Origin: Escherichia phage vB_EcoM_3HA11
Reading direction: 5' to 3' (one strand)
Length of the DNA stretch: 64,000 nt
Sequence record: MN342150
Below the pieces are notes generated by a model that saw nothing but the letters and a program-made list of their open reading frames with translations, did no database searches and was not told where the DNA came from. The position numbers were made by a program, and so were the translations under genes. Below, piece by piece: positions 51,390-55,600 of this stretch; within the stretch, counting starts at the first letter, position 1; each line of letters begins with the position of its first letter.

Positions 51390-51623
51390 TTAAGAAACGA
51401 TAACCGTCGCATCAGAATTAATTGCCTTAACCCATCCCACCGTCGGCGGGGTTAAAACGACCATATTTCCTTGATATATGATATGCGCGTTGTTACCCGT
51501 TGGAGTGCTGGGGTTATCACACAGATACACAGAACCGTGAGTCACTTGAAGAGTTTTCAAAGATGTGCCGTCTGAGACTTGCGTCCATGTACTTGCGTTT
51601 GGTGTGATCTTAGCAGTTGCCAT
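51390..51623 (-). CDS. hypothetical beta-rich protein (77 aa), possibly structural
   Basis: TAAATAG late-promoter-like motif upstream; beta-type composition. Confidence 0.4.
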   Translation of the reverse strand: MATAKITPNASTWTQVSDGTSLKTLQVTHGSVYLCDNPSTPTGNNAHIIYQGNMVVLTPPTVGWVKAINSDATVIVS

Positions 51624-51648
51624 AATAGACCTCCTTTACAAGTCAGAT

Positions 51649-51658
51649 CTATTTATTA
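51649..51658 (-). promoter_or_regulatory. late-promoter-like motif TAATAAATAG
   Basis: Upstream of gene 51390..51623. Confidence 0.25.
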
Positions 51659-51660
51659 CA

Positions 51661-51691
51661 GACAAAAAGAAACCCGATCATCCTGATCGGG
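51661..51691 (-). terminator. terminator downstream of the tRNA array
   Basis: Hairpin CCCGATCA-tcc-TGATCGGG followed on the minus strand by TTTCTTTTTGTC. Confidence 0.4.
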
Positions 51692-51744
51692 CTATGTTAA
51701 ACCATCGTGGGGATGGAAAGACTACTCACAGCAATTTCTGATAA

Positions 51745-51835
51745 TGGGCGTTGGGAGAGTGCGTCGGGAATCGAACCCGAAACCGTCAGGACAATGAAAA
51801 GCTATTGCATTTCACCTTGCATATCCTCCGGCTTT
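51745..51835 (-). tRNA. tRNA-like element (T-arm present, cloverleaf not resolved; possible pseudo-tRNA)
   Basis: GGGTTCGATTCCC T-arm signature on the minus strand, but no complementary 5' acceptor strand found by eye. Confidence 0.2.
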
Positions 51836-51917
51836 CTTAACTTCCTTAACCCCAGATTGTTATGAAGTCGGCATGCACACCTTCTTCATCTTCAGGAAGT
51901 CACACTCATTATTCTGA

Positions 51918-52003
51918 TTGCTTCAACTGGATTCGAACCAGTGACCTCAGGCACCTTGTTCTCTCGAAACTTTCCTGCGCTCTACCACTCGAGCTATGAA
52001 GCA
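51918..52003 (-). tRNA. tRNA-like element, 86 nt, anticodon arm non-canonical
   Basis: Perfect acceptor stem (TGCTTCA/TGAAGCA), canonical D-arm and T-arm (ACTGG-TTCGAAT-CCAGT), but 35 nt between D- and T-arms with no standard 5-bp/7-nt anticodon stem-loop. Confidence 0.35.
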
Positions 52004-52006
52004 ATT

Positions 52007-52095
52007 TGGCGGAAGGTGAAGGATTCGAACCTTCGGGGGCTAAAAGCCCCACTCGATTAGCAGTCGAGTCCCTTAAACCTCTCGGGCAACCTTCC
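52007..52095 (-). tRNA. tRNA-Ser (anticodon GCU)
   Basis: Hand-folded cloverleaf: acceptor GGAAGGT/ACCTTCC, anticodon stem CTCGA/TCGAG with loop CTGCTAA, long variable arm, T-loop TTCGAAT, encoded CCA. Confidence 0.7.
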
Positions 52096-52099
52096 AATT

Positions 52100-52183
52100 T
52101 GGAGCGGGAGAACAGGATTCGAACCTGTCCAGTGATCGTCGCCGATGATCAGTCGGCTACTGGCCAACCCCTATGGCTCCCGC
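52100..52183 (-). tRNA. tRNA-like element (anticodon loop CTGATCA, possible GAU), non-canonical junctions
   Basis: Acceptor GCGGGAG/CTCCCGC and T-arm present, but one extra nucleotide between T-stem and acceptor, no clean D-stem, pyrimidine at position 37. Confidence 0.3.
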
Positions 52184-52544
52184 GAAATTAGGACGGGCTT
52201 CACACCCGATTGAGCATTTCATCTGCCCGTTTGAAGGGCGACCAGTGCCTTCTGGTCTGTACACAGCTGGCTGCAACGCTTACCGTGTTTGGTCTACCGC
52301 TACGTGCTGGGCCACGCTCGAGGACATCGGCCATCCTTCCTCAGCTAATCCACGCAGCGGCAGATTTGTATCAGAGTGTCCGGTGTAGCTTTCCGTGAGG
52401 TGCGCACTACTGTAGCCTCTACACTCTGAATTTGGTGGGCGTTACTATCGTCGTCTTCGGATTCCGTTCTGCTATTGGACAGAGGCTTGGAGCTTGTCGG
52501 TCGCATACTTCGTGCCTATTCACTTTCGTTCACACCCGTAATTC

Positions 52545-52619
52545 TGGCGGTGCCTCAAGGACTCGAACCTTGCTATCACGGATTAACAGTCCGCCGCTTC
52601 ACCATTTAGCTAAAGCACC
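52545..52619 (-). tRNA. tRNA-Asn (anticodon GUU)
   Basis: 75 nt; acceptor GGTGCTT/AGGCACC, anticodon stem GCGGA/TCCGT with loop CTGTTAA, T-arm CAAGG-TTCGAGT-CCTTG, encoded CCA. Confidence 0.65.
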
Positions 52620-52627
52620 TGAATATT

Positions 52628-52703
52628 TGGCATGCCCTCCAGGACTCGAACCTGGGTTGTACGGTTTTGGAGACCGACCTCATAGCCGCTAGATCAAGGG
52701 CAC
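52628..52703 (-). tRNA. tRNA-Trp (anticodon CCA), weak D-stem
   Basis: 76 nt; acceptor GTGCCCT/AGGGCAT, anticodon loop CTCCAAA, T-arm CCAGG-TTCGAGT-CCTGG, encoded CCA. Confidence 0.5.
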
Positions 52704-52717
52704 ACACCTTACAACGA

Positions 52718-52742
52718 ACTATACTGTATAAAGGTTATTGAA
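52718..52742 (-). promoter_or_regulatory. promoter-like motif TTCAATAA-N11-TATAGT (minus strand) upstream of tRNA-Trp
   Basis: The -10-like hexamer ends about 15 nt before the mature tRNA-Trp 5' end. Confidence 0.35.
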
Positions 52743-52771
52743 ACAAACCTTTATTTTATTCAACCATAATA

Positions 52772-52848
52772 TGGTGATCCTGGTTGGGTTTGAACCAACG
52801 ACCAATGAATTATGAGTTCACTGCTCTAACCGACTGAGCTACAGGACC
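52772..52848 (-). tRNA. tRNA-Met (anticodon CAU; initiator/elongator/Ile-lysidine not distinguished)
   Basis: 77 nt canonical cloverleaf: acceptor GGTCCTG/CAGGATC, D-arm GCTC-AGTCGGTTA-GAGC, anticodon stem GTGAA/TTCAT with loop CTCATAA, T-loop TTCAAAC, CCA. Confidence 0.75.
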
Positions 52849-53252
52849 TTTTGATTCTTCAAATTTCTCAACACGTGTGGGTTGGATTCTAACATCTTCT
52901 TCATGTTGTCCTCCTTACTTAACAATTGTAAATTCCACAGTGCGCAATTATATTTGTTCTCATCAATATGGTCTATTTCAAACCCTTCTGGAACTGGGCC
53001 ATTAAACGCCACCCAGACAAACCAGTGTAGATATTTCCTGAGATATACACCCAGATATTCCACTTTTATTTGCAAATAGCCAGTCCCGTTGTCCACTGCA
53101 GTCAAATACTTCTCTGGCAGTTTCTGTTCATATTCCCTAAACTGGTTCTTACGGAGTATAGTCAATTCAGGCTTCTTGACCTTTCCGTAGTTGCTGACAA
53201 ATACGCAGATTCCGAGTTTATCCAAACACAACTCTTTCCAAATCTCTTCCAT
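52839..53252 (-). CDS. HNH homing endonuclease
   Basis: 137 aa; HNH motif EIDHIDENKYNCALWNLQLL; adjacent to the tRNA array; 3' end overlaps tRNA-Met by about 10 nt. Confidence 0.6.
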   Translation of the reverse strand: MEEIWKELCLDKLGICVFVSNYGKVKKPELTILRKNQFREYEQKLPEKYLTAVDNGTGYLQIKVEYLGVYLRKYLHWFVWVAFNGPVPEGFEIDHIDENKYNCALWNLQLLSKEDNMKKMLESNPHVLRNLKNQKVL

Positions 53253-53259
53253 GCCAACT

Positions 53260-55600
53260 ATTCCCCGTTATTTGTGATGTGTCCAACCAAGGTCTCTCAA
53301 CCCTTTATCCCGTTTGTGCATGATCAGTTCATGCATGCCTGTTTGTGCGCCTCACGGCAACGCGCTTCTGTGGGTCTTTGGCTTGCACCGTAGCCTCACC
53401 ACAGGCGTTTATTTTTCCAGGGCTTTCCACTTGCAAGTCTTGACCATATAGGGATACGGGCTTGCAAGATCGGGTTGGACACAACTTTGATGGCTCTAGG
53501 ACTAAAGATCCCGCGTCACCCATAGACTTGGTTTATAAAATCTAGAGCCATCAAAGTTGCAACCAATGTCGCAACTCGCACTTCAGCGTCTTCGTCTCGC
53601 TTCAGCACTTGTCCTCTACGCTCGGACCAAACGAGGCTGGCCGACAGAAACATGACACCACTCATCACTAGAGCGAGGATGTGGTTGATAGCCACGATGT
53701 TACATCTCTGTCGCAGAGTGATCACACTTGTCAGGATGATCACTGTTTTGCGAACTTGAAAATACTGCGCCTGTCTCGGGTTTCCCCTTAGTTCGGCCTC
53801 TCATTGTTCGTCTAGTCAGGGAGCTACCCTTGATGACCAGCTTATTTTGAGATCTTCGCCAGCACCCACTAGTGTCTAGAATATGTAGGTGTCGAGGTCC
53901 GCAAGGCATTGCCCTATTTCATACAACGCTCTCTCAAGTACGCAAATCGAAGTTCTCTGGGCTTAACAGGTTCGACCCAACATGTTGTATATCGCCTAAC
54001 TTACTCATGGGACGGCCACTTCTGTGTACAGACCTTGAGGGTTAAAAGATATACCCAAAGAACTTCGATTTGCGTTGTGGGGCAAACCCCCACACGGCTA
54101 CTTCTTTGACAGGGATTGCTAGCCCTGGGGATTCCACTGTTTAAGGCTTTATCCCATAACGCCCGAGGCGCGTTTTAACTTATTGAAGCTTGCATAACTG
54201 CAAACTGATGCGCTGTGAGACACATCTTTGAGGGCACTCAGTGTACAACAGGCTCCGATATTTCATAGGGCATTACTGCCTCGGATTTAAGTTGCCTTTC
54301 TCCTGAAACTCCATACAGTCTCGCGTCTGACGCGGAATGCCCTCAAAGATATGGAGCCGTTTTAGGGAGTCGAACCCAAATGCTTGGCCAGCGCTGACCT
54401 TACATCCCATCTGACTTAGGCAACCCACCTCTGCTTACTCAGGAGCTTATCCCCTTTGGACAGTCAGATATAACGGCTTTGGGATTGGAGGAAGGACTCG
54501 AACCTTCTCATGTACGCTCCTGATTTCTCAGAAGTAGTCTGCTCCCATCGACCTATTAAGTACACGCTCCGCTCATTGTTCGGCGGGAGCTTATTAATCA
54601 CACCCTCCCGCCTATTGTTAGTGCGCCGAATTTTGTTATGAGGAATCGGAAGACCTCACTGGTGTATGGCTATTAAGCTACTGCCAGGAACGTGTTATCA
54701 TTAGCGATTATTTTTGTGGTCAGTTTCTAAAAACCCGCAAAGTCACGCACAACGAAAACGAAAACCTGTTTGAGTCCTAAACCTACCTGTCTTGGTCTCA
54801 CATCGCTATGAGTGGCCAGGACTCAAACAGCTTGCCGTTCAGTGAGTTAACTATACTTTGTAACCCGTTATTGATAAAACCTTTTATTTTTGTTGACGAG
54901 GGTGTGGAATCGAACCACACTTCTGAGCGCTGCCCCGTGTCACCAATGCACCACCTCACCATCGATTTGCCGGAACTTACGCATCCGGCCTCGTCCTGTC
55001 GGTGTTCTTCTGAATCCGGGAAGATCAGCAGGAACTATGAATCAAGTTAATTCAACCAACAGGAATCCTCGTGTTGCCCTTTGACGCAACATTATGAACC
55101 CTCTATGAAGACTCATAATGTTGTCGGCGTGATGGAGATTAGCGCCCCCGACCTCCCCTTATATGTTGGTGTCGACTTGCCAACAGGGTGCTCTCTGATT
55201 CTGAGCTAATCACGCTACAACAGGGAGTTTCGTTCTCCGACGGTCAAGTGCGTCCACTGACACCAGCGAGGTGGATATTATGCCTCTATTCACACAAGCC
55301 CCAGAGACTAGGGGTTCACTGTTTTCGGTTTCAAGCCTACTCACACTGTGCTGTTTCCCTCATGTTTGATACTTTACTGCAAGCCAGCCAATTTGAAAAA
55401 TCCTCTCCCCTTTGAATTACACTGCCCACAGCAGTGCGGACGAACCTTCATTCAAAACCGGATGCGCCGAAATGGGCGACTGTGTACCGGACTGATCAGG
55501 TCGACCCAGGAGAGAGCAGGTAATCCCGATCAGGAGGATGAGGAGTAACATCATGTAAAACATAGTGTTCCCTCCCTTCCATGCAACTAACTTTACCGCA
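53260..55600. other. ORF-poor structured region with tRNA-like fragments and long-range inverted repeats (candidate ncRNA, intron or pseudo-tRNA remnants)
   Basis: No credible ORF of 60 aa or more; T-arm-like motifs at about 54366, 54496 and 54910 with acceptor-like pairings at non-tRNA spacing; inverted repeats such as 53483-53500/53551-53568, 53943-53957/54060-54074 and 54225-54234/54341-54350. Confidence 0.4.
55414..55560 (-). CDS. small hydrophobic peptide (about 48 aa; below ORF-track cutoff)
   Basis: ATG preceded by strong GGAAGGGAGGGA RBS; MFYMMLLLILLIGITC signal-like N-terminus; coordinates hand-counted. Confidence 0.3.

What the first reader, a model, noticed from the sequence alone, without database searches (positions are those of the whole stretch)
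51745..52183. Three tRNA-like elements in the array do not fold canonically
Besides four canonical tRNAs (Ser-GCU, Asn-GUU, Trp-CCA, Met-CAU), three tightly packed elements have good T-arms and, in two cases, perfect acceptor stems, but aberrant internal structure: 51918-52003 has 35 nt where the anticodon arm plus variable loop should be; 52100-52183 has an extra nucleotide at the T-stem/acceptor junction and a pyrimidine at position 37; 51745-51835 lacks a matching 5' acceptor strand. They could be pseudo-tRNAs, non-canonical tRNAs needing processing, or hand-folding errors.
Basis: seen in the sequence. Interest (0 to 1): 0.45.

Follow-up and report, generated by a model that had tools for sequence, protein, structure and literature searches.

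The report
Conserved tRNA-like RNAs in phage tRNA operon
The three odd "tRNAs" in this Salmonella phage are real tRNA-shaped RNAs that cannot read codons; two belong to conserved families, one built like the long-unexplained species 1 RNA of phage T4.

Summary
The window is a Kuttervirus (Ackermannviridae). Its tRNA operon lies on the minus strand.

- **Element B (51918-52003).** It has the body of the tRNA-Ile(GAU) found at this site in phage Mooltan. A 30-nt arm, CAGG-ARAGYUUCGARAGAACAAGGUG-YCUG, replaces the anticodon arm. The same arm occurs in N4-like phages on a different, fully compensated acceptor stem, and in Jedunavirus-type cloverleaves. It occurs in none of 185,579 bacterial and archaeal genomes.
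- **Element A.** The RNA is about 154 nt (51753-51907) and has four arms. It always sits last before the terminator. It is conserved in three Ackermannviridae genera, with 11 compensated pairs. It is built like T4 rnaC, with no detectable homology.
- **Element C (52100-52183).** ARAGORN calls it tRNA-Ile(GAU), but it has C37 and an extra junction base. It is Ackermannviridae-specific and carries an internal deletion in Det7-type phages.

None of the three can decode. The most likely reading is that they are operon-borne tRNA mimics, matured by tRNA-processing enzymes; their function is unknown.

In passing, I found a widespread tmRNA-like tag-encoding RNA at about 54590-54790.

The parts
51753..51907 (-). 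Element A: a tRNA-like RNA of about 154 nt with four arms. They are an acceptor stem, a long D-like arm, a long anticodon-position arm and a T arm, followed by U-CCC-A.
   Evidence: Minimum-energy fold. RNAalifold on 12 distinct sequences from Kuttervirus, Agtrevirus and Taipeivirus gives 34 pairs, 11 of them compensated. Covariance model R1 scores 165-191 bits in the three genera.
51901..51907 (-).
   Evidence: Pairs with CGCACUC at 51757-51763. Pair 9:154 switches U-A to C-G, and pairs 7:156 and 11:152 change on one side only.
51764..51780 (-). A: T arm UCGGG-UUCGAUU-CCCGA.
   Evidence: Two compensated pairs, 134:150 and 136:148. T-loop motif hit at 51767-51777.
51864..51884 (-). A: hairpin P2 inside the D-like arm, with a nearly invariant apex AAGGUGUGCAUGCCGA.
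   Evidence: Pair 34:43 switches G-C to A-U in Agtrevirus. Its loop UGCAU is complementary to AUGCA in the apex of the anticodon-position arm; that pairing is my inference. An 11-nt identity to E. coli ssrA is weak, reached by 19 of 500 shuffles.
51783..51830 (-). A: long arm at the anticodon position (P3), with conserved apex GUGAAAUGCA..AGCUUUC.
   Evidence: Six compensated pairs within columns 83-90 / 123-131.
51918..52003 (-). Element B: the body of tRNA-Ile with the anticodon arm replaced. The 3' end reads A-UCA here and A-CCA in some relatives.
   Evidence: RF00005 scores 48.7 bits. Acceptor stem, D stem, variable region and T arm are identical to the Mooltan tRNA-Ile(GAU). Family alignment: 99% of cells paired, 5 of 7 acceptor pairs compensated, 0 of 500 shuffles reach the observed score.
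51948..51977 (-). B: conserved 30-nt arm CAGG-AAAGUUUCGAGAGAACAAGGUG-CCUG. A 3-bp stem capped by a GNRA tetraloop is one possible fold.
   Evidence: The same arm occurs in Schitoviridae HK2, in Jedunavirus JYSS3, in IMG/VR contigs and in metagenome contigs. No hit in 185,579 prokaryotic genomes.
52100..52183 (-). Element C: tRNA-like, with anticodon-like loop CUGAUCA (GAU, C37), an extra junction nucleotide, and an encoded U-CCA.
   Evidence: ARAGORN. No RF00005 hit. 95.5-97.7% identical in Agtrevirus. A 37-nt internal deletion in Det7. Found only in contigs of about 156-160 kb, the size of Ackermannviridae genomes.
52007..52095 (-). Canonical tRNA-Ser(GCU), between C and B.
   Evidence: ARAGORN; RF00005 scores 56 bits.
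52545..52848 (-). Canonical tRNA-Met(CAU), tRNA-Trp(CCA) and tRNA-Asn(GUU) at the head of the operon.
   Evidence: ARAGORN; RF00005.
51671..51693 (-). Terminator-like hairpin plus U tract, closing the operon about 60 nt after A.
   Evidence: Consensus scan. Terminators are annotated at the same relative place in phages Menlow and May.

Best explanation
A, B and C are tRNA-derived RNAs that do not decode and that travel in the phage tRNA operon.

Each keeps the coaxial acceptor stem plus T arm. By established knowledge of tRNA maturation, that is the part RNase P, the 3' trimming nucleases and the CCA-adding enzyme recognise. Each has something else in place of a working anticodon arm. I therefore expect them to be cut out of the polycistronic transcript like the neighbouring tRNAs and to accumulate as stable small RNAs. 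That step is inferred. They cannot act as adaptors on the ribosome; that follows from the sequence.

- A is an Ackermannviridae-wide four-arm RNA of about 154 nt at the end of the operon, architecturally like T4 species 1 RNA (rnaC).
- B is one member of a mobile class in which a conserved 30-nt arm sits on different tRNA-like scaffolds in unrelated lytic phages.
- C is a lineage-specific, dispensable relative with a degenerate Ile-like anticodon loop.

The most likely mode of action for A and B is molecular mimicry. The acceptor/T 'elbow' would dock onto a tRNA-binding partner from the translation, ribosome-rescue or tRNA-targeting-defence machinery, while the substituted arm gives specificity. 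The partner is unknown.
For: Shown:
- Non-canonical features of all three elements.
- A: 34-pair consensus fold with 11 compensated pairs across three genera that share only 72-76% identity.
- A is always the last element before the terminator.
- A weak, syntenic paralogue exists in Limestonevirus, and by eye in Cba120.
- B: identical scaffold to a canonical tRNA-Ile at the same site in Mooltan.
- B: all 9 differences between the window copy and the pSal-SNUABM-02 copy fall in unpaired positions.
- B: the N4-like copies have 5 of 7 acceptor pairs changed on both sides. The D stem and T arm are invariant and the 30-nt arm differs only at a few unpaired positions and one G-C/G-U pair.
- The arm is absent from 185,579 prokaryotic genomes.
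- T4 rnaC shows the same layout: it is last in the tRNA cluster, and its ends pair next to a canonical T arm.
- Three further elements of the same kind lie upstream in the window.

Inferred: processing by RNase P and the CCA-adding enzyme, stability, and mimicry.
Against: - I found no expression or end-mapping data for any Ackermannviridae phage.
- Within Kuttervirus the elements are nearly identical, so conservation there says little.
- The cross-family spread of B could partly reflect recent horizontal transfer rather than long selection.
- C is internally deleted in many Kuttervirus genomes, and B is replaced by a normal tRNA-Ile in Mooltan-type phages. Neither is therefore essential.
- The window copy of B has lost its encoded CCA.
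- No partner or phenotype is known. T4 rnaC, the closest analogue, still has no known role.
Confidence: 0.6

Rival explanations
1. They are dead tRNA genes, left behind by the rapid turnover of this homing-endonuclease-rich tRNA region, and have no function of their own.
For: The array is very fluid: tRNA-Tyr, tRNA-Trp, tRNA-Ile and other modules come and go between close relatives. C carries a 37-nt internal deletion in Det7-type phages. B is replaced by an intact tRNA-Ile in Mooltan, which lacks C altogether. Det7's annotators called B a pseudo-tRNA.
Against: A has 11 compensated pairs and nearly invariant loop sequences across genera that are otherwise 72-76% identical. B's odd arm is conserved on three different scaffolds in unrelated phage families with compensated stems. 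Substitutions avoid the stems. A decaying pseudogene would show neither pattern.
Confidence: 0.15
2. They are tRNA-like-domain partners of a phage trans-translation system. The tmRNA-like tag RNA W (about 54590-54790) lacks its own tRNA-like domain. One of the neighbouring tRNA-like RNAs would supply the acceptor end or bind SmpB, either as a split tmRNA or as a TLD-only inhibitor like the one in mycobacteriophage DS6A.
For: W carries a 10-codon tag frame in 101 of 103 distinct copies, with clear third-position variability. In each of the three phage families examined, W is followed within about 60-130 nt by a non-canonical tRNA-like element: E2 in the window, a GUUGUGGUG cloverleaf in 31 of 119 loci, and a G3:U70/A73/CCA element in FelixO1. 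Contig L036 has the 3' half of W next to a cloverleaf that carries B's arm. A shares GUGCAUGCCGA with E. coli ssrA. TLD-only phage RNAs are on record (PMC4131195).
Against: None of A, B, C or E1-E3 has G3:U70 with A73. A has G3-C70 and U73, read directly from the sequence. Neither ARAGORN nor the Rfam tmRNA models hit A, B or C. The A-to-ssrA similarity is weak, reached by 19 of 500 shuffles. A, B and C lie about 2.5 kb from W, beyond an HNH gene and canonical tRNAs. Pollock's W appears to end at a hairpin followed by a T run that I read as a terminator, with no tRNA-like domain.
Confidence: 0.15
3. B and/or C are real decoding tRNAs. B would need removal of a mini-intron. C would be an unusual tRNA-Ile(GAU) that escapes host anticodon nucleases.
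For: ARAGORN calls C tRNA-Ile(GAU), with a 5-bp anticodon stem, a 7-nt loop, U33 and an encoded CCA. With introns allowed it calls B Pro(AGG). By established knowledge, phage tRNAs with altered anticodon loops that evade nucleases are a known theme.
Against: B: the ARAGORN solution has A33, and an intron at the canonical 37/38 site would also leave A at position 33. 13-15 nt is far too short for a self-splicing intron, and enterobacteria have no tRNA splicing endonuclease (established knowledge). C: a pyrimidine at position 37 rules out t6A37, which E. coli IleRS uses. It also has a weak D arm, an extra junction nucleotide, an RF00005 score below reporting, and is deleted in relatives.
Confidence: 0.07

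Closest known systems
Bacteriophage T4 species 1 RNA (rnaC), and its neighbour species 2 RNA (rnaD)
   Same: Like A, it is the last gene of a phage tRNA cluster that also holds a homing endonuclease. It is 139 nt, against about 154 nt for A. Its 5' and 3' ends pair in a 7-bp acceptor-like stem that abuts a canonical T arm (CCGGG-UUCGAAU-CCCGG). It has a long arm at the D position and a hairpin at the anticodon position. Its function is unknown (PMC3014915; PMC12685909).
   Different: There is no detectable sequence or covariance-model similarity: R1 does not hit T4 rnaC. T4's acceptor stem has two U-U mismatches. A has conserved apical motifs (GUGUGCAUGCC, GUGAAAUGCA) that T4 lacks. Common descent is not shown.
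Pseudo-tRNA / 'tRNA-OTHER' annotations of Kuttervirus genomes, for example Det7 gene 194
   Same: This is the same locus as B. Det7's record reads 'pseudo tRNA undetermined specificity; contains a possible 15 bp intron'. Other records call it tRNA-OTHER, Leu(aag) or Pro. C is annotated tRNA-Ile in some records.
   Different: The annotations treat B as a defective tRNA. They do not note that its arm is conserved on other scaffolds in N4-like and Jedunavirus-type phages. A is unannotated, or overlaid by hypothetical ORFs, in the records I inspected or saw listed.
tmRNA tRNA-like domain, including the TLD-only RNA of mycobacteriophage DS6A
   Same: An acceptor stem plus T arm without a decoding anticodon arm, encoded by a phage (PMC4131195). 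A tmRNA-like tag RNA lies in the same ncRNA island.
   Different: A, B and C lack G3:U70 with A73 and are not recognised by ARAGORN or the Rfam tmRNA models.
Bacterial and phage Y-RNA-like YrlA, a tRNA-mimicking module
   Same: A non-coding RNA that imitates the tRNA acceptor/T/D region, and that by my own knowledge is often phage-encoded near tRNAs.
   Different: By my own knowledge, YrlA's ends lie in the Ro-binding stem and its acceptor-like stem is closed by a loop; here the ends lie in the acceptor stem. Rfam RF02553 gives no hit on A, B or C.

Membership tests
Canonical elongator tRNA (Rfam RF00005) | 7-bp acceptor stem directly stacked on a 5-bp T stem with a UUCRANY loop | tested here: met
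   Met for A and B. C has one extra nucleotide at the junction.
Canonical elongator tRNA (Rfam RF00005) | 5-bp anticodon stem closing a 7-nt loop with U33 and a purine at position 37 | tested here: not met
   B has a 22-nt interior on a 4-bp stem. C has U33 but C37. A has an arm of about 48 nt instead.
Canonical elongator tRNA (Rfam RF00005) | Score at or above the curated gathering score (29 bits) | tested here: inconclusive
   B scores 48.7 bits, but only with permissive filters and with a 13-nt insertion (missed). C and A have no RF00005 hit at E <= 10.
Intron-containing tRNA | Removal of the insert restores a canonical anticodon loop, and a splicing mechanism exists in the host | tested here: not met
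   ARAGORN's 15-nt solution leaves loop CAAGGUG with A33. The canonical 37/38 position also gives A33, read directly from the sequence. 13-15 nt cannot be a group I intron (established knowledge).
T4 rnaC-type stable tRNA-like RNA | Last element of a phage tRNA cluster, 130-160 nt, ends paired in an acceptor-like stem next to a canonical T arm | tested here: met
   A. T4 rnaC.
T4 rnaC-type stable tRNA-like RNA | Sequence or profile homology to T4 rnaC | tested here: not met
   Model R1 finds no match at L033 2409-2547, only T4 tRNAs at 9-13 bits.
T4 rnaC-type stable tRNA-like RNA | Accumulates as a stable RNA matured by RNase P, with a CCA end | not testable with these tools
   I found no transcript data for Ackermannviridae.
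tmRNA or tmRNA tRNA-like domain | G3:U70 wobble pair and A73 (alanine identity) | tested here: not met
   A: G3-C70, U73. B: C3-G70, A73. C: G3-C70, U73. Read.
tmRNA or tmRNA tRNA-like domain | Recognition by ARAGORN or the Rfam tmRNA models; tag reading frame | tested here: not met
   No tmRNA call. No tmRNA-family hit on 51500-53000. The short frame after GCC in A is not conserved between genera. The tag frame is instead in element W.
YrlA / Y-RNA-like | Match to RF02553 and permuted topology (ends in the Ro-binding stem) | tested here: not met
   No hit on A, B or C. The ends lie in the acceptor stem.

The most novel reading that the evidence does not exclude
The tRNA-like RNAs (A, B, E1-E3 and their relatives) and the tag-encoding RNA W would be the dispersed parts of a phage-borne trans-translation or ribosome-rescue system. 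W would supply a phage-specific degradation-tag frame (ANDNTFLAVA). One of the tRNA-like RNAs would supply, or block, the tRNA-like domain that works with SmpB. This would let diverse lytic enterobacterial phages take over or disable host tmRNA during infection.
Probability: 0.15. Interest if true: 0.9.

Novelty: new variant of a known kind. Interest (0 to 1): 0.6.

Why it matters
Phage tRNA genes are usually discussed as codon-usage helpers or as replacements for tRNAs cleaved by host defences. Here, at least half of the RNA units in one well-studied phage family's 'tRNA region' are not tRNAs. They are conserved tRNA mimics.

- One (A) gives T4's species 1 RNA, unexplained since the 1970s, a structural counterpart in another phage family. 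That makes its function approachable by comparative and genetic means.
- Another (B) shows that a specific 30-nt RNA module moves between tRNA-like scaffolds in unrelated lytic phages. That pattern is expected for an RNA with a defined molecular target.

There is also a practical point. Genome annotations currently label these loci inconsistently as Ile, Pro, Leu, Asp, 'OTHER' or hypothetical proteins.

Tried and rejected
- **Real intron in B.** Rejected: no excision gives U33 with a purine at 37.
- **A as a tmRNA or mini-tmRNA.** The short frame after GCC in A differs in length and sequence between genera. There is no G3:U70, no ARAGORN or Rfam hit, and the 11-nt identity to ssrA is reached by 19 of 500 shuffles. 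I kept it only as a low-probability lead.
- **B's arm as a sarcin-ricin-loop mimic** (AGU..CGAGAG..AAC, recalled from memory). Rejected because half of the family has GAAA instead of GAGA.
- **B's loop as a peptide frame** (KFRENKV / ELRKNKV). Rejected: the only ORF there runs through tRNA-Ser.
- **Origin of C.** Global alignment to Tyr, Ser, Leu, Gln and Ile tRNAs from the same and related arrays gave at most 63% identity and no clear parent. Its interior has two competing folds that the few substitutions cannot separate.
- **IMG/VR pattern scan for A** returned four high-GC coding-sequence false positives. **The scan for B's arm** returned seven coding false positives.
- **R1 against T4 rnaC:** no hit.
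- **Rfam:** nothing at E <= 10 for A or for the 360-nt region G.
- **Literature:** The one on rnaC/rnaD gave the T4 papers cited here; none found a paper on Ackermannviridae tRNA-like RNAs, on transcriptomes of these phages, or on tmRNA-like RNAs in enterobacterial phages.

Full report
**Context.** The 1.3 kb around the finding is 100% identical to several Salmonella Kuttervirus genomes (family Ackermannviridae), such as vB_Sen_ST2 and AR2819. All RNA genes lie on the minus strand. Read 5' to 3', the order is:
- tRNA-Met, tRNA-Trp and tRNA-Asn;
- a 360-nt non-tRNA stretch, which I call G;
- element C, tRNA-Ser(GCU), element B and element A;
- about 60 nt further on, a terminator-like hairpin with a U tract at 51671-51693.

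**Checking the observation.**
- Default ARAGORN finds the four canonical tRNAs and also calls C tRNA-Ile(GAU).
- The Rfam tRNA model does not report C. The best clan hit is tRNA-Sec at 23 bits, against a gathering score of 47.
- B is missed by default ARAGORN and by the whole-window Rfam run. With permissive filters it scores 48.7 bits as a tRNA, with 22 nt where 9 are expected.
The minimum-energy fold pairs GAGUGUG (51901-51907) with CGCACUC next to the T arm, which gives an RNA of about 154 nt.
- T-loop motifs are enriched and strand-specific: 6 observed against 1.6 expected.

**Element A.**
- BLAST finds A in 234 phage records. All named records I inspected are Ackermannviridae, apart from a few oddly labelled ones. 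Identity is 94-100% in Kuttervirus, about 75% in Agtrevirus and about 72% in Taipeivirus.
- In every locus inspected, A is the last element before the terminator. It directly follows whichever tRNA or tRNA-like element precedes it: B, tRNA-Ile or tRNA-Gln.
- An alignment of 12 distinct sequences gives a consensus fold of 34 pairs, 11 of which have changes on both sides. These are one pair in the acceptor stem, two in the T arm, seven in the long arm at the anticodon position and one in hairpin P2.
- The layout is a four-way junction: acceptor stem; a D-position arm CUUCCU/AGGAAG that encloses hairpin P2 and a conserved AAUCUGGNGUU; the linker UUAAGAAA; a long anticodon-position arm; the T arm; then U-CCC-A.
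- The two apical loops hold the invariant, mutually complementary pentamers UGCAU and AUGCA.
- A model built from this alignment scores 165-191 bits in the three genera. It scores 19 bits (E about 1e-4) on a syntenic, shorter element just after tRNA-Met in Limestonevirus. By eye, that shorter element is also present as a second copy in Cba120.
- T4's tRNA cluster ends in the same way. tRNA-Arg is followed by rnaD and then rnaC. rnaC (139 nt) folds with its ends in a 7-bp acceptor-like stem next to the T arm CCGGG-UUCGAAU-CCCGG, a long D-position arm and an anticodon-position hairpin.
- The A model does not detect rnaC. The resemblance is therefore architectural and positional, not demonstrated homology.
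- The role of rnaC and rnaD is still described as unknown (PMC3014915; PMC12685909).

**Element B.**
- Phage Mooltan has a canonical tRNA-Ile(GAU) at exactly this site. B shares its acceptor stem, D stem, variable region and T arm base for base. It differs in the D loop, in the whole anticodon arm and, in this window, in the CCA, which reads UCA. Other Kuttervirus copies keep the CCA.
- Excising the insert at the ARAGORN position or at the canonical 37/38 position does not give a loop with U33 and R37.
- The Agtrevirus copy in pSal-SNUABM-02 differs at 9 positions, all unpaired.
- The decisive result is that the arm CAGG-ARAGYUUCGARAGAACAAGGUG-YCUG recurs outside the family:
  - in N4-like Schitoviridae (HK2 and three contigs) on a scaffold whose acceptor stem differs at 5 of 7 pairs, all compensated, with a further C-G to U-A switch within that group;
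  - in a 72-kb contig, inside a tRNA array and with an encoded CCA;
  - in Jedunavirus JYSS3 and related contigs, on a different cloverleaf with a 9-bp closing stem, a D-like hairpin and a T-like hairpin with a 9-nt loop.
- On the family alignment, 99% of cells are paired, and no shuffle of 500 reaches the observed covariation score.
- The 24-mer core is absent from 185,579 bacterial and archaeal genomes.
- Position 2 of the interior and the third tetraloop base change together (A with GAGA, G with GAAA). Both states occur in the Ackermannviridae group and in the Jedunavirus-type group. I cannot explain this.

**Element C.**
- C is found only in Ackermannviridae.
- It is 95.5-97.7% identical between Kuttervirus and Agtrevirus. 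The few substitutions keep the acceptor and anticodon stems paired through wobble pairs.
- In Det7-type phages a 37-nt internal deletion removes half of the anticodon arm, the variable region and most of the T arm. 27 records match only the 5' part.
- I found no canonical parent, and two folds compete.
- C is best described as a dispensable, degenerate tRNA-like element. Whether it does anything where it is intact cannot be decided here.

**How it most likely works.**
- Shown: the shapes, their conservation, and the loss of a decoding anticodon arm.
- Inferred from established tRNA biochemistry: an acceptor stem stacked on a T arm is sufficient for RNase P cleavage, 3' maturation and CCA addition. 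These RNAs should therefore be released from the operon transcript and be stable.
- Inferred further: A and B act as tRNA mimics that bind a tRNA-recognising partner and present a specific substituted arm.
- I put 0.6 on this reading. I put 0.15 on plain pseudogenes (mainly C), 0.15 on a link to trans-translation, and 0.07 on decoding tRNAs.

**Wider locus.**
- Three further acceptor-plus-T-arm RNAs lie upstream: E1 54895-54995, E2 54484-54548 (with a GNRA-capped arm and an encoded CCA) and E3 54355-54478.
- The 360-nt stretch G is conserved in all four genera and shows compensated helices. It is interrupted by tRNA insertions at fixed points in relatives.
- An element of about 200 nt, W, is shared with Felixounavirus, N4-like and T1-like phages. 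It carries a tmRNA-like 10-codon tag frame.

**Novelty.**
- B and C are visible in public annotations under inconsistent names.
- A is unannotated in the records I inspected or saw listed.
- I found no paper, in the library available, that describes A as a conserved structured RNA, the cross-family arm of B, or W.
- tRNA-like stable RNAs in phage tRNA clusters are a known kind, through T4 species 1. I therefore rate this a new variant of a known kind.

Noticed in passing
window 54590-54790, minus strand (element W): A tmRNA-like mRNA-like domain. The sequence AAAAAUAAUC GCU AAU GAU AAC ACG UUC CUG GCA GUA GCU UAA UAG encodes ANDNTFLAVA**, and the stop codons sit in a hairpin. E. coli ssrA encodes ANDENYALAA**. 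A query that includes W (54340-55010) matches 663 phage records, and the matches outside Ackermannviridae (Felixounavirus, Schitoviridae, T1-like siphophages) fall on the W part and are unannotated. A similar query hits 143 E. coli genomes at W. In 101 of 103 distinct copies the frame is exactly 10 codons, AN(D/E)xx(F/V/Y)L(A/M)(V/A)A. Summed entropy by codon position is 4.5 / 4.6 / 9.9. ARAGORN finds no tmRNA. Rfam gives only weak tmRNA_permuted and beta_tmRNA hits. I found no tRNA-like domain belonging to it. A published exhaustive search found phage ssrA only in mycobacteriophages and Bacillus phage G (PMC4131195).
   Followed up: partly
window 52184-52544, minus strand (region G, between C and tRNA-Asn): A stretch of about 360 nt with no Rfam hit. 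It is conserved in Kuttervirus, Agtrevirus (97% over 250 nt), Limestonevirus (83% over 360 nt) and, in pieces, Taipeivirus. It contains several helices with compensated pairs. Modules within it end in ACCAAAUU / ACCAAAC, the same punctuation that follows the tRNAs. Relatives have tRNA-Tyr and other modules inserted at fixed points. Small ORFs annotated here in some records are probably spurious.
   Followed up: partly
window 54895-54995 (E1), 54484-54548 (E2), 54355-54478 (E3), minus strand: Three more non-canonical tRNA-like elements, each with an acceptor stem closing next to a UUCGAnU T arm. E2 has a 7-bp arm capped by GAAA and is followed by C-CCA. E3 is a four-arm RNA of about 124 nt, like A, and ends in (U)CCA. 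E2 and E3 are separated by only a few nucleotides, as tRNAs in an array are. They are conserved at 96-100% in Kuttervirus loci. There is too little diversity for covariation.
   Followed up: partly
L032 1969-2110 (Dickeya phage Ds20CZ) and L005 about 1860-2000 (Cba120): A shorter paralogue of A, which I call A2. It shares the apex AAGUGAA..AUAGCUUU but lacks hairpin P2. It sits just after tRNA-Met in Limestonevirus and between tRNA-Asn and G in Cba120. Its T stem differs between the two by a compensated pair. It is absent from this window.
   Followed up: partly
L007 1299-1490 (Ag3), L030 2261-2455, L021: Another element of about 190 nt, with T arm GUGGG-UUCAACU-CCCAC and acceptor UGGGUGG/UCACCCA. 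It lies between tRNA-Ser or B and A in Agtrevirus and in some Kuttervirus genomes. It is absent from this window.
   Followed up: no
L054 about 893-975 (Salmonella phage FelixO1), about 60 nt downstream of its W copy: An element that ARAGORN does not call. Its acceptor stem is CGGGGCG/CGCCUCG, which gives G3:U70, A73 and an encoded CCA, the alanine identity set of tmRNA and tRNA-Ala. It also has an arm GCGGU-CUUCUAA-ACCGC. These features are read directly from the sequence.
   Followed up: no
window 51948-51977 and homologues (B arm): Interior position 2 and the third tetraloop base always change together: A with GAGA, or G with GAAA. Both states occur in the Ackermannviridae group and in the Jedunavirus-type group. 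The change is not Watson-Crick. The cause, a tertiary contact or arm swapping by recombination, is unknown.
   Followed up: no
window 52839-53252, minus strand: An HNH homing-endonuclease ORF sits directly upstream of tRNA-Met and overlaps its 5' end by a few bases, as annotated in relatives. T4 likewise has the homing endonuclease segB inside its tRNA cluster. This probably explains the rapid gain and loss of modules in the array.
   Followed up: no
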